Positions 33,301 through 42,300 of a stretch of 64,000 bases of DNA are shown one piece after another (position 1 is the stretch's first letter; each line of letters opens with the position of its first letter). A program made the position numbers and the translations under genes. The stretch lies in the NCBI RefSeq assembly GCF_964204645.1, contig NC_134025.1:6820001-6884000 (forward strand), read 5' to 3'. The notes under the pieces are model-generated. The model did not search any database. It was given only the letters and a program-made list of their open reading frames with translations, and was not told where the DNA came from. This DNA is from Tubulanus polymorphus (lineage: Eukaryota; Animalia; Nemertea).

Positions 33301-36300
33301 AAACTTATCAAGGTACTTTTTCTAAATACACAGCTGATTTTTCCATAATTCCTGAAAATGTGATGATACAAGTATTTGTACTTGTTTTACGCAGGCATCT
33401 ATATCTACGGTGTTGGACGGCCAGAAAGGCTAAAGAATGGATGAGCAATATATCCACTTTCTCATCAACTCTCGGTAAACAGTTCACTGATCCTAATCGC
33501 TTTGACTCATTTGCTCCGATACGAGTTGATACACAAGCTAATTGGTTCATCGATGGCGCCGGATATTTCAATGCTGTGGCATCGGCTTTAGAAAATGCTA
33601 AAGAAGAAATTTACATCACTGATTGGTGGTAAGTAGTTCTGATTGATGAAGTATGAGTGCAAACATATCAGAGATTCTCGTACTTGATTTTTTCAACCAA
33701 ACATGAATCCCAGTCCAGCGAAAACGCTTCCAACCCCTGTATGTAATTGTTGGTAAATGCACGGAGTTAGAATTTTGTTTTCAAATTTAAAGGTTAAGTC
33801 CAGAAATTTATATGAAAAGGCCAGTGAATGAGGGCGATTATTGGAGACTTGATGTCATACTGAAACGAAAAGCTGTAAGTTTGCATGAAGATAAGAAGAA
33901 ATTTTACACTTATATCAGATGGCTTGATGTGGTATGACACGGAATGCATTTACATTATTTCAGGAACAAGGGGTTCGCATATTCATTTTGTTGTGGAAAG
34001 AAATAGAACTTGCAATAGGAATCAATAGTTACTACAGTAAACAAACTCTAGCCAGCAGACACTCAAATATAAAAGTAAGGCGTTGAGTTTATTTCATACA
34101 CTGTCAGTGGTGTAATCATGCATTTGTATTTCAAATTAATGGGGTACCGGCAACGCTACTGTGGCAAGCAGAATTCCACCATAATCCGCCAGGTTCGCTA
34201 GTGTGTTGACGTCGCAATATGACGTTGACGCTGGATTTCTTCTCAAATTCAATTAAAATCTAATAATAATTTCTCAAATTCTATGCATGATATATGAAGA
34301 TTGTGGCATATATGAACTCTAAGGATTAATCAGAGTTTATTTCGATGCGTGATTTGCCAAATTTTTGGATTGGAAGACCGAAAATTGAGTTCAAAGTTGA
34401 AAATGAACTAAAATCAACAATTTTGATCGAGTGCGTCTGATATCTCAGTGGCGCCATCTGACGGGATAGCTGGTGTGCCGGTTCCCCATTAAGATAAATT
34501 CATGGTTCATATCAATTTTGAAATGATAAACTCCATCATTTTAACTTTGTCGTACACAGTTCATAACCCATTATTTTGTGAAATCTTGAAGGTGTTACGT
34601 CATCCAGATCATGCACCGGGTGGTGTCCTATATTGGGCTCATCATGAAAAACTTGTGATAATTGATCAACGAACAGCGTTCGCTGGTGGCATAGACCTGT
34701 GTTTTGGACGTTGGGACACACCGAATCACTTGTAAGTACCATGTCAGATCATACCCTTTCCCTCCCAGCCACCAAAAACAGTTAACTAAACAGACACTAA
34801 AAACTATTCATTTTAAAAAGGATTAAGAAGACAATCTTTATTTCATTTCAAACATTGTTCTAAATACTTGTTTTCATATTCAGTATTTAGTGTGCATGAA
34901 TATGAAGTGTATGATTTACTATGATTCATCTAATACTTTTGTGTATGTTTGAATTACTGTCTGTTATTGCCATCTTGCAACATTGAAGAATCATTAGTTT
35001 TCTTAGGTTTCCAGTCTAAATTCACGTAATCATGATTTTCTTTCAATTTCACGTTACCACGAAGATCAATATTGACGTAATCATGATCATTTTTAAGTTC
35101 GGCATTCACATAGTTATGATCTTGATCATGATCCACGTAGTCATAATCATGAATAGATTCGGTTTCAGCCAATGCTGGATTGTCTCTTCCTCTTGTCTCA
35201 CCAGGAGGTGCTGCTGTATTTACATCTGTCTGTTCAGGCCCGACAGGGTTCACTATACCCATTTGTGGCGCACATGTGTAACGAGGGGCGAATGTAATAG
35301 AAAATTGACTTGCTGGGGGTAAAGGCGGTCGCTTGGTAGTTTTCTTTACTTTTTCCTTCCTATAAGATGAAAATATGATTACCAAACTCATTGTTTCACA
35401 AATTCTTTATTAAGGATAAACTCATTAGATTTTTATTTACCTGTATTTGTATATAAGGATAAAGCATAAAAGTAAACAGACAATAAAAAGGACGGCTGCG
35501 ACTACTGATATACCAATTATTGCACCTATAAACAAAAAAACAACTGTACATATTTCTCTTTGATTGCATACACAAAAAATCTAGAAATTTTATAAAAAGA
35601 AATGAATGCACTCTGGGCCAAAGTCAGATTTGGTATAGTTGGAAAATGATGCATGTATTCATGTACATATGTATGGGTTAGGATTAAGGGGATGAAAGGT
35701 GACAGCAGCGCGCCCTGTTTTCACCTATGTGTGACCTTGGCTGGTGTACTGAAACTGACCTTGAGATATTCCCGATGAAGGACTGGGTGTTTTTGCACTT
35801 GTGCTTGTATTTATCGTCACTGATGGTGATGTTAGTGGCTGATTTCTTCTAAATATTGTTGGCTTTTTACAATGAATATTCGTCGGAATTTTTCCATCTA
35901 AAAAGAGAACGAAGCAGATATGACGCTTGCTGCATTTAGTACTGATGTAGGCCCTGACTGGTAAAATTTCAAACAGATATTTACCTAAGGATATCTGACT
36001 GTGAAATCCTCCATCAGTTGCTTCACGTAATGATCTATACTCAATATTCAAAGTTCCATTATCATTGACGAGCAGTTCTTCTGTCCCATTACACGTATAT
36101 CTTGTATTGTAGATATCCAGGTATTGATAGCAGTTAAAGTGAACTGTTGTATTGCTAGGTGACCACTTCTGAAGCACGGGTACTCCATCCTGTTTTATTT
36201 CGCACGAACACTTCAAATGTGTTACGTCCTTGGTTTCGGATTCATCGAATCTGAAATTCACTGATTTCGCTCGTATTGTCTTCACTAAATACTTGCACGG

Positions 36301-39300: not shown

Positions 39301-42300
39301 TCATTTTGTCCTTATCCGCTAATTTAAATCTCAACTAATTCCACACGTTGATTTCATTTGATATCTTTTGAATCGTGCCTACAGCTAATGTCTATGATGT
39401 CATGCATATTACTATAAAACTGGCTTCACCATGTGACTGACTGGTGACCCAAAAAACAAGTTTACAATATGAATCCTAATATTCGAGGATTAGCCAAGAT
39501 ATATTAAACTGAATTAGTAGTAATTCTTGACTTGGTGTGTTCTAACATCTTCAATGAGATGACCATTATATTTTATGCTTTTTCAAACATTCCTCTAGAT
39601 ATTATTACCTCTGTAGGTTACGTTGGTTTGTATTGCGGTTGTGTCCAGATTTTCAGTTGGTACTGGTAAAGTCATAGATGTGGGTGAATATCTTGAAGCT
39701 AGTGATGGTGATGTCGACATTCTTGTAAAACTGACAGATCGACAATCCACCTGATGATACAAGAAGAACAACCTTGTTCTGCTCGAGGCTGTGAAAAATA
39801 AGACTATTCAATGAAATGCAATATTTTTAGTTGAAATGTATTGCTAGGACTGCTCTTTATTTGTATACCGTTGATTTGTAGTCTTAATGCTGTGTCTTCC
39901 TCTATTGGGTATCTCTGATTCAAACTTTCTAATGTCACTGTCCAGCTTCTTCCAGTTATACCAAGTGTGAATTGGGAACTATCTGTCTGATTAATAATTT
40001 TTTGATTGATCGTCAAATGTTGATCTCTGTTATTACGATTGGATGAATAAAATCCAGTTATTTGCCAGTTGTAGAAAGTTCCTTGTACGTTACAGGAACA
40101 CAGTTTTTTGCTGGTTACAGAATATATGATTCTGAATGACTTTGACTTGTAACCAATACTCCGACCAATACTATTACAAATGTCATAACTTTTCATTCCA
40201 TCAGCTAGAATAAGAATGGACATTCTTGAAAATACCTTTTGAAATACCATCAAAATAACATGTTTTAAGTTTCATAATAACAAAGTGAGCATAAAAAGTG
40301 AGCATTTTTTTCTTTTTTAACTTTGAAATTTGAGAAGTCTTACCTGTTAAGATGAATAATAGAAATATCCAAAGTCGTGGTGGCATATTGCATTTGTGTT
40401 ACAGCTTTTAGTATTAACATGAACCTTATATTCTTGTTGAAACTTTCCTTAGTTTTTTCATACAATAATTTTGCTGGTTGTTTATAATAACAATATTGGA
40501 AGTATAGTCGTTATGTATATCGTCATGACATCTAGTTCAGTTTTGTATCGTATCATTCTGAATTTTCTTTCATGCTTTAATAGGTTAAGAGAGTCACATG
40601 CCTTGAAAAATCTCTGGTTCTTGACTACGTATTGACTACTTGTGTCAGGGAGGAATGTGTGTTTTACTTGCTGATCACATAATTTTCCTTGCCAATGACA
40701 GGGCCATGTTTCAATGCTCTTGTTAACTAAAAATCTACTTTATCACAAAAACTTAATGAACTGATTACTAATCAGTTGAAATCGGTATTTTTCAGCCTTT
40801 CAGATATTGGGTCAGTAGATCCTGAACAGGTCTCATTAAACCTTAATCAAAATGGAAACGACTTTCCCAGTACAACAACAGTATCCACGAATCTAACCAC
40901 TCCGGGTGCGACTCCGAGTGCAACTCCTCGTGATCGATCGTTATCAGTTCCACAACGCACCCTGATCGAGAACAGCGGTGAAAATGTGGTAAGGTTATTC
41001 ATGGCGCGTACACAAACTCGTAACTCCCAGTTAGATGTTAAACGACCCAAACCGCTTCAGCAAATATCCGAGGAAAATGCGAATGTTAATGTTCAAAAAG
41101 ATTCAGATTCAGATAGGTCTGGCAGTCTCACAGAACTGCTGGTAAGATAGGCATCATCCATTGCTTGGCTTTCATCAGTATTTCTCTCATTTATTTGGTC
41201 TTGGGTTTTTTGTTTTTGGAATCTGTAAATATTTCCTCAAGTCTTCTTGATCTCTTACAAATTGCATGTTCGTTTGTTTTGTAAATGGGATTTAGGGATA
41301 TGGATTTTCAGTATATAAAAGGCAGTCTATGAATGTCTATGAATGTATGGTATGATGTCCTTTCATTTATATAAATATAAAGATGCAACTTGCATGTAAT
41401 TAATTAGTTTGTGATATATTGATATATTTATTCGCATAAAAGATCGCTAAAAAGTTTAGATATGAATGCACAATTTAAGCAAAACAGTGTACCAATAAGT
41501 TATGCGAGGAATTAGGAAAAGCCAAGTACCCGGTAGTCCTAATCCCTTGCCTATTTACTCTCACATAAACACAGACATACACCCATCCAAATTCATTAAT
41601 CACCAAATGAAAATAATATATACGATAATTTATTTCAAATTATCTATTGCTAGAACGTACGCCGAATCAGTCAGCCATTGGATGGACCCTCTCCGGAACG
41701 GGCACGACAGAATATTTTCCTGTCACGTCAGAATGCCGTTGATGAAGTCGATCAGACGTCGGAAAAACCTGCTCCGACGTTTAATAAACAAACTACTCCT
41801 CAACTACGCCGCAAGATTGATGCCATATTGAAAGCTAAGAATAAATTCAAACAGACGCTACAGAAACGAAGGGAGAGTGCAGCAAGACGCGATAGGTAAA
41901 GAAACTTTAGTTTACCCCTAGATACTGATCATTTGAGACCAATGAAAATCATCATGTTATTGCAAATTTCCGAGTAAAATCTGTATAATATAATCATTTT
42001 TGTGGACTGTGAACAATTACTACTAGATCAGAAGCGATGAGGATTGAATGTTTATCACAGTGTATTATTACATGCTCACTTCATAGCAATAAGCACTAAG
42101 ATCTATCAAAGTGACTAGTCACTTTTTGTTCGACTGCATATCATATGTTACCAAATTATATCCCTTATACATGTACTTGAATTCATATTTTGTCACACTT
42201 TTTAGTGATCTAGACTCTGATGATGGAGGAAAAGTAGCCGAGATGAGAGTGGCGTATATCGCTCGGGATTTGTCGGTAAAACGTTACGAGTTCATGGGAA

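What the first reader, a model, noticed from the sequence alone, without database searches (positions are those of the whole stretch)
34954..40386. Hidden antisense cluster of three related, unrecognised receptor modules inside a phospholipase D intron
Seen: the 6-kb intron after PLD's first HKD exon (34732-40795) is filled on the - strand by cleanly spliced modules N1, N2 and N3. They share an exon plan (leader / about 115-aa domain / Cys+Ser/Thr stalk / TM / tail) and a Cys signature: DxC...FR...CxCx(I/V), with another Cys early in the next exon (DIC/CSCNV/VDC; DWC/CYCKI/VTC; DPC/CSCEI/IHC). Otherwise they are very divergent. Inference: a fast-evolving family of CUB- or Ig-like cell-surface receptors with different cytoplasmic outputs, as in paired immune or allorecognition receptors. 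I do not recognise the family.
Basis: partly seen in the sequence, partly recalled or inferred. Interest (0 to 1): 0.8.

Follow-up and report, generated by a model that had tools for sequence, protein, structure and literature searches.

The report
Ribbon-worm CUB-like receptors inside PLD intron
Inside an intron of a ribbon worm's phospholipase D gene lie three distantly related backward-running gene copies: one complete spliced gene for a predicted cell-surface receptor with a likely CUB-type outer domain and a tyrosine-rich tail, one spliced copy without a signal peptide, and one likely decaying copy; it likely is a small fast-changing receptor family whose immune role is untested.

Summary
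The nested cluster is real, but the three modules are not equal. The host is the nemertean Tubulanus polymorphus (name on the protein records), and the PLD intron 34732-40795 is supported by an RNA contig. N2 (586 aa) and N3 (319 aa) are already RefSeq 'uncharacterized' genes; one RNA-like run shows 7 of the 9 predicted junctions, all in N2 and N3. Only N2 has the full leader/domain/stalk/TM/tail plan. N3 has no leader, and one unbroken RNA contig runs from N2's tail into N3's domain. N1 has no TM or tail and was not seen spliced. No sequence relative was found; ESM Atlas features put N2 and N3 beside the same unnamed mollusc/rotifer clusters, then CUB families, and a weak fold model ranks a CUB domain first. 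The tails have no ITAM or ITIM; N3 has three YVN sites. N2 holds 17 of 32 differences between two haplotypes (13 amino-acid changing, 4 silent), about 1%, below snail immune clusters. The scan noted similar tyrosine-tailed receptor clusters in abalone and mussel, none with this sequence. Verdict: divergent CUB-like variant of a known kind; immune role unproven.

The parts
34592..34731 (+). Host gene phospholipase D, first HKD exon (HEKLVIID)
   Evidence: Pfam PLDc E 1.8e-7; seven mapped exons join without a stop
34732..40795 (+). 6,064-nt PLD intron holding the cluster
   Evidence: GT..AG; offset in RNA contig record 9 predicted 1668 = observed 1668
40344..40386 (-). N1 exon 1, predicted signal peptide (15 codons, phase 1)
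   Evidence: 7-aa hydropathy 3.71, donor GTAAGA; no RNA junction
39869..40204 (-). N1 exon 2, Cys-signature domain (C24, C50, C52; lacks the two inner Cys)
   Evidence: fold model uninformative
39595..39788 (-). N1 exon 3, distal Cys plus short Ser/Thr stalk, runs to a stop at 190 aa; no TM exon follows
   Evidence: X2 contigs cross the intron before it and the donor at 39608 unspliced
39244..39304 (-). N2 exon 1, predicted signal peptide
   Evidence: junction 39160/39244 in X2; model equals RefSeq XP_074643662.1
38798..39160 (-). N2 exon 2, CUB-like domain (C27, C58, C60, C86, C103)
38340..38696 (-). N2 exon 3, distal Cys151 and Ser/Thr-rich stalk (41% S+T over 108 aa)
   Evidence: junctions in X2
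38167..38254 (-). N2 exon 4, transmembrane helix
   Evidence: 19-aa hydropathy 3.27; junctions
37187..38078 (-). N2 exon 5, acidic tail of about 300 aa with 19 Tyr, three YxPW repeats, no ITAM or ITIM; RefSeq isoform X2 (403 aa) skips part of it
36316..37186 (-). 871-nt spacer between the N2 stop and the N3 ATG, with 22 ATGs and AATAAA at 37005 and 36413; covered by one unbroken RNA contig
   Evidence: X2 contig 36050-37276
35985..36315 (-). N3 first coding exon, leaderless CUB-like domain (C7, C36, C38, C62, C75; sequons at N55, N76, N86)
   Evidence: model equals RefSeq XP_074643681.1
35760..35897 (-). N3 distal Cys120 and short Ser/Thr stalk
   Evidence: junctions in X2
35441..35525 (-). 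N3 transmembrane helix; net charge +1 before, +7 after
34954..35359 (-). N3 tail of 134 aa with three tandem (D/N)H(D/N)YVN repeats
   Evidence: YVN x3, 0 of 5000 shuffles; DNA repeat family D1

Best explanation
The intron holds three diverged copies of one gene type, likely made by old tandem duplication, of which N2 is a complete spliced gene for a predicted kinase-less surface receptor with a likely CUB-type domain, N3 is a spliced copy that lacks a signal peptide, and N1 is likely a decaying remnant. N2 would hold one jelly-roll domain above the cell coat on a glycosylated Ser/Thr stalk, bind a protein ligand, cluster, and have its acidic 19-tyrosine tail phosphorylated by a cytoplasmic tyrosine kinase so that SH2 adaptors dock (inferred from anatomy). 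N3 would either insert by its TM helix as a type III protein (N-terminus outside, basic residues inside) and signal through three YVN sites of the Grb2-SH2 type (consensus recalled), or be at an early stage of decay. In the domain, C1-C2 and C3-C4 would be the usual CUB pairs, and the second Cys of CxC would pair with the Cys in the next exon, an extra staple (inferred, not modelled). Nesting in PLD is likely incidental. Shown: exons, splicing of N2 and N3, shared Cys and phases, missing parts, polymorphism counts. Inferred: fold, topology, ligand binding, phosphorylation, duplication history.
Confidence: 0.58

Rival explanations
1. One reading: polymorphic immune or self/non-self receptors with different outputs, under pathogen-driven or balancing selection, like the snail PTC1/PTC2 clusters or Hydractinia Alr genes. 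(This can overlap with the best explanation; the number is for an immune recognition role.)
For: Clustered single-pass genes with one binding domain, a polar disordered region and divergent tails match PTC1/PTC2 (PMC13712769 section 29; PMC10875847 passages); N2 and N3 give the same weak TMEM154 and Rifin Pfam hits, below cut-off. N2 coding DNA holds 17 of 32 differences between the window and contig X1 (7.1 expected; best-window test 56 of 20000, or 502 of 20000 after merging clustered sites), 13 amino-acid changing to 4 silent, against 1 silent change in 748 nt of PLD exons. Oyster lectin receptors signal through Syk by a hemITAM (PMC13027682, review passages).
Against: No ITAM or ITIM in either tail. 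Two haplotypes only; about 1% is below the 2.3-5.7% coding diversity listed for snail candidates. 8 of the 13 amino-acid changes are in stalk and tail, and N2 exons are no more variable than N2's own introns (2 in 357 nt, Fisher p 0.76), so a locally old haplotype with relaxed constraint fits as well. TMEM154 and Rifin hits reflect stalk and TM composition. No tissue or challenge data.
Confidence: 0.33
2. N2 and N3 are one transcription unit: a two-ORF RNA, or its processed products, makes a receptor (N2) and a leaderless YVN adaptor or co-receptor (N3) that works like LAT-type transmembrane adaptors.
For: One unbroken X2 contig, 36050-37276, runs from N2's last exon through the 871-nt spacer into N3's domain, with no joint and no loose end. 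A rough budget needs mean depth of about 165-225 over the spacer, while PLD-intron contigs near N1 have 5-8. N3 lacks a leader, yet its frame is intact and spliced.
Against: A contig across two genes shows no single transcript; an N2 3' UTR overlapping a long N3 5' UTR from its own promoter gives the same picture. AATAAA at 37005 and 36413 offers N2 its own end, and 22 upstream ATGs would block scanning to N3. RefSeq files them as two loci. No loose end that would mark a spliced leader was listed for X2. Contig depth is a poor measure.
Confidence: 0.15
3. The proteins are developmental, adhesive or neuronal accessory proteins (like Neto/SOL-1 or neuropilin-type CUB proteins) or simple mucin-like coat proteins, and their divergence reflects weak constraint.
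For: CUB single-pass proteins serve as glutamate-receptor accessory subunits (PMC9083331, passages and reference titles); Neto2 and neuropilin-2 CUBs are among the fold hits. N2 scores just over the Mucin15 cut-off by its stalk and TM (28.6 and 27.6 against 27 bits). pN/pS near 0.9 fits relaxed constraint.
Against: Such accessory proteins are conserved enough to be found by sequence (recalled), and these are not. Long tails with repeated Tyr motifs (YVN x3, YxPW x3, each 0 of 5000 shuffles) suggest signalling.
Confidence: 0.2
4. N1, N2 and N3 are cassettes of one gene, mixed by alternative splicing (for example N1 leader and domain onto N2's TM and tail, or N2's leader onto N3's domain).
For: All joints before the tail are phase 1, so cross-module splices would stay in frame; N1 lacks exactly what N2 could give and N3 lacks exactly a leader; a weak in-frame phase-1 AG lies at 36351-36352 (sequence).
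Against: None of the 7 joints in X2 crosses modules; the RefSeq isoforms found do not either. Contigs drop rare variants, so this is not excluded.
Confidence: 0.08

Closest known systems
Biomphalaria polymorphic transmembrane clusters PTC1/GRC, PTC2 and LG5R (PMC10875847 passages; PMC13712769 passages and section 29)
   Same: Lophotrochozoan clusters of poorly annotated single-pass genes: signal peptide, one binding domain, polar disordered region, TM; weak TMEM154/Rifin Pfam hits; fragments and broken members.
   Different: Their domains are FN3, Ig, C-type lectin or EGF, not CUB-like; they are far more polymorphic, cover large regions and are tied to parasite resistance by genetics. Here: three copies in one 6-kb intron, no phenotype.
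Hydractinia Alr family (PMC9546547, passages)
   Same: One exon per domain or TM, invariant extra cysteines, tails more divergent than ectodomains, a mix of bona fide, leaderless, unexpressed and broken members.
   Different: Alr proteins have tandem Ig and FN3-like folds and many carry ITAMs or ITIMs; here one likely CUB-type domain and no ITAM or ITIM.
CUB domain family (PF00431) and single-pass CUB proteins such as Neto/SOL-1, Kremen, neuropilin
   Same: About 110 aa, predicted beta-sandwich, four Cys at CUB-like spacing in N2 and N3; nearest named Atlas clusters and top Foldseek hit.
   Different: No profile match; a CxC where CUB has Cys-x-Trp (motif recalled) plus a distal Cys in the next exon; N1 lacks the inner Cys pair; single domain on a mucin stalk.
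Unnamed ESM Atlas clusters of 135-153 aa, mostly mollusc and rotifer
   Same: Top three hits for both N2 and N3 domains (0.94, 0.89, 0.88-0.89).
   Different: No alignment or E-value is available, so kinship is a lead; the first hit might be the proteins' own cluster.
Type III TNF receptors (BCMA, BAFF-R, TACI, XEDAR; PMC13420781, passages) and LAT-type adaptors (recalled)
   Same: N3 has no signal peptide, a Cys-bearing N-terminal domain, a basic stretch after the TM and repeated YVN sites.
   Different: Unrelated sequence and fold; N3's topology is only predicted, and its 157-aa N-terminal part is long for this route.

Membership tests
CUB domain (PF00431) | Match to the CUB profile | tested here: not met
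   0 of 3 domain exons at E up to 10; 0 of 3 whole N2/N3 proteins
CUB domain (PF00431) | 100-110 residues with four conserved Cys forming two disulfides (PMC9083331) | tested here: inconclusive
   Exons of 110-121 codons; N2 and N3 have four Cys at CUB-like spacing plus two extra, N1 lacks the inner pair; pairing not modelled
CUB domain (PF00431) | Compact beta-sandwich of CUB topology | tested here: inconclusive
Calcium-binding CUB subset | One Glu and two Asp coordinating calcium (PMC10214685) | not tested
   No reliable alignment to a calcium-binding CUB was obtained
   No Ig family matched the domain exons or appears in the Atlas rows; one nanobody hit to N1 at E 0.46 and one Ig_PDGFR_d4 hit over the N2 stalk at E 0.15 are noise level
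Paired immune receptors | An ITIM-bearing member | tested here: not met
   0 matches to [ILVS]xYxx[LVI] in the N2 and N3 tails
Paired immune receptors | An ITAM-bearing member | tested here: not met
   0 matches to YxxL/I-x6-12-YxxL/I in both tails; single YxxL/I sites exist, so hemITAM-type use is not excluded
Paired immune receptors | Closely similar ectodomains that share a ligand (recalled) | tested here: not met
Allorecognition or PTC-type polymorphic receptors | Very high allelic diversity in the ectodomain | tested here: inconclusive
   Two haplotypes only: 17 differences in N2 coding DNA (5 amino-acid changing in the domain), 3 in N3, 0 in N1
Allorecognition or PTC-type polymorphic receptors | Genetic link to a recognition or resistance phenotype; expression in immune cells | not testable with these tools
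   No tissue, challenge or cross data
Type I single-pass receptor | Signal peptide, one TM helix, cytoplasmic tail on a spliced transcript | tested here: met
   N2 only; N3 lacks the signal peptide, N1 lacks TM and tail
Nested antisense genes | Wholly inside an intron of a host gene on the other strand | tested here: met
   CT..AC joints inside 34732-40795; host intron supported

The most novel reading that the evidence does not exclude
N2 and N3 are a co-transcribed receptor-adaptor pair of an undescribed spiralian family of CxC-stapled CUB-like recognition receptors: one RNA encodes a polymorphic ligand-binding receptor under balancing selection and, 871 nt downstream, a leaderless paralog that inserts as a type III protein and supplies three Grb2 docking sites. 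It would be the first such recognition cluster described in ribbon worms (not found in my searches) and a natural case of a type I to type III switch by loss of the leader exon.
Probability: 0.1. Interest if true: 0.72.

Novelty: new variant of a known kind. Interest (0 to 1): 0.38.

Why it matters
Nemertean recognition receptors are nearly unstudied (a search for nemertean, immune, receptor, genome and CUB domain together gave 0 papers). If the fold call holds, the unnamed mollusc and rotifer Atlas clusters and these genes are one widespread CUB offshoot that sequence profiles miss, which would name many 'uncharacterized' spiralian proteins. The leaderless but spliced N3, joined to N2 by continuous RNA cover, is a cheap test of whether a duplicated receptor can survive loss of its signal peptide. 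As a kind, clusters of fast-changing tyrosine-tailed single-pass genes and nested antisense genes are both well known, so the general surprise is modest.

Tried and rejected
No whole genome is held, so paralogs elsewhere in the genome and the orthologous intron in relatives were not searched. Sequence searches found only the genes themselves: N2 domain, longer proteins, 1 of 66 candidates; N3 domain, longer proteins, 1 of 22; three-domain profile, 59-210 aa, 0 of 31, which also means no 190-aa N1 record turned up, while longer N1 records were not searched. The 1.84-billion representative search with the N2 domain gave 2 hits, N2 itself and P0007, a 1,572-aa SprB-repeat protein from an unnamed ENA record, rejected as a low-complexity repeat match. 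Metagenome scan: 45 pattern matches, 0 confirmed. PDB sequence searches: 1, 0, 4 and 3 hits, none below E 0.29. No listed holder is on record as RNA; I read X2 as RNA from its spliced joints and X1, X3, X4 as DNA-like from contigs that cross introns. Lack of N1 junctions in one run does not show that it is silent elsewhere. The joint that would give RefSeq isoform X2 of N2 was not among the 7 seen. The idea that 36437-36468 is a decayed N3 leader exon (ATG, early stop, donor GTATGA, 86-nt gap) failed a DNA test: rank 164 of 3197 windows against N1's leader, so it stays a guess. A hydrophobic stretch with two stops near 39440-39506 might be a decayed N1 TM exon; not tested. No further copy of the full Cys signature lies in the window. 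No earlier scan finding resembled N2 by sequence or lay nearby. No complex prediction was run, as no binding claim is made.
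Full report
Setting. No genome is held for the window. The N2 and N3 domains retrieved RefSeq proteins named for Tubulanus polymorphus, a palaeonemertean ribbon worm. The host gene is a phospholipase D: exon 34592-34731 matches PLDc at E 1.8e-7, and seven mapped exons join without a stop. An X2 contig places 33627 at record position 1140 and 41653 at 1667; my exon map, with the 6,064-nt intron 34732-40795 removed and exon 40796-40988 included, predicts 1668 for base 41654, as observed. 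The intron is thus supported by length arithmetic; the joint itself was not among the rows shown.

The modules are real. The minus strand of the intron has 6 open frames of 120 aa or more, against at most 2 in 500 shuffles. My N2 model (39304-37187, five exons, 586 aa) equals XP_074643662.1, LOC141900588 isoform X1; my N3 model (36315-34954, four exons, 319 aa) equals XP_074643681.1, LOC141900600. Five runs were listed, none on record as an RNA holder. Four were laid. X2 behaves as RNA: over 34760-40720 it shows 7 joints, all CT..AC, which are N2's 4 and N3's 3 introns. That is 7 of the 9 predicted introns, from one run of unstranded contigs.

The plan is not shared in full. Only N2 has leader, domain, stalk, TM and tail. 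N3 begins at the domain with no hydrophobic N-terminus (0.74 against 3.71 and 2.94), an in-frame stop lies 13 codons upstream, and RefSeq starts it at the same ATG. One unbroken X2 contig, 36050-37276, runs from N2's last exon through the 871-nt spacer into N3's domain, with no joint or loose end listed. The spacer has 22 ATGs and two AATAAA. This fits read-through, or an N2 3' UTR overlapping an N3 5' UTR; contigs cannot tell these apart. N1 has leader, domain and a short stalk and stops at 190 aa; no TM exon follows. X2 contigs at depth 5-8 cross its second intron and its last donor unspliced, as PLD pre-mRNA or DNA background would, and no 59-210 aa record matched it.

Tails. Neither tail has an ITAM or ITIM. 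N2's is acidic (20% D+E) with 19 Tyr and three YxPW repeats; N3's has three tandem YVN sites (each motif 0 of 5000 shuffles; both are internal repeats chosen after inspection). YVN is the Grb2-SH2 consensus (recalled). N3's TM has net +1 before and +7 after, favouring N-terminus outside; receptors without a signal peptide that insert so exist (PMC13420781, passages).

Variation. X1's contig over 34462-42450 differs from the window at 32 places, all of them listed. 17 fall in N2's 1,761 coding bases (7.1 expected; best-window test 56 of 20000, 502 of 20000 after merging three clustered sites), 3 in N3, 0 in N1, 1 silent in 748 nt of PLD exons. N2 has 13 amino-acid-changing and 4 silent differences (pN 0.0095, pS 0.0103), unlikely at omega 0.2 (p 0.004) but fine at 0.5 or 1. 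Five changes are in the domain, 2 in the stalk, 6 in the tail. N2's own introns are not significantly less variable (2 in 357 nt, p 0.76). X2 shows both letters at four of the sites. This is a hint of an old haplotype with weak or diversifying constraint, from two haplotypes, and well below the 2.3-5.7% listed for snail immune candidates (PMC10875847, passages).

Comparison. The closest kind is the lophotrochozoan cluster of poorly annotated single-pass genes, such as Biomphalaria PTC1/PTC2 (FN3, Ig, disordered regions; PMC13712769 passages and section 29), and the Hydractinia Alr family, which also has leaderless, unexpressed and broken members but uses Ig folds and ITAM/ITIM tails (PMC9546547, passages). 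Oyster lectin receptors show that molluscs use tyrosine tails with Syk (PMC13027682, review passages). Nested genes are common, near 10% of fly genes (PMC3814207 and PMC5174743, abstract starts only). None of the 17 listed of 19 papers naming the species concerns these genes by title or abstract start; searches for CUB-like lophotrochozoan receptors gave 8 and 0 papers, none on this family among those listed. Supplements were not read and could list such genes. Two earlier scan notes describe tyrosine-tailed receptor clusters in abalone and mussel; they are unchecked, and none matches by sequence.

Verdict. Observation partly confirmed, interpretation partly supported. Best reading (0.58): an old tandem cluster of kinase-less, likely CUB-type receptors in birth and death, one complete, one leaderless, one decaying. 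An immune role is plausible (0.33) but untested, and the paired-receptor motifs are absent. The odd, testable part is N3. New variant of a known kind; interest 0.38.

Noticed in passing
window 34136-34492: A 357-nt element with 17-nt terminal inverted repeats (94%) in the PLD intron before the HKD exon; very high summed contig depth and many loose ends in all four runs, so likely a high-copy MITE.
   Followed up: partly
window 40796-41141: The PLD exon after the big intron has two in-frame donors, 40988 (used in the RNA contig by length) and 41141 (51 codons more, no stop), a possible short/long loop isoform pair, recalling mammalian PLD1a/b (recalled).
   Followed up: partly
window 14923-21093 (- strand): Tandem array of at least four intronless retinol-dehydrogenase-like short-chain dehydrogenase copies (label recalled from the motifs); those at 14923-15828 and 15838-16802 are split across frames.
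   Followed up: no
window 37187-38078: N2's tail has three YxPW(G/R) repeats of unknown meaning, and RefSeq isoform X2 removes most of the tail tyrosines by an internal splice.
   Followed up: partly
window 38687-38691: Three substitutions within five bases at the start of N2 exon 3, next to the acceptor, in contig X1; may be one mutational event.
   Followed up: partly
window 21414-21841 and 27743-28123: Long (AT)n microsatellites that give the IYIY open frames.
   Followed up: no
window 59611-60204 (+): Single-exon dual-specificity phosphatase frame (HCVAGVSRS; label recalled); FKBP-like exons at 11195-11770 (-), a glutamate-transporter-like gene at 2187-3667 (+) and a zinc-finger exon at 25264-25668 (+) are also in the window.
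   Followed up: no
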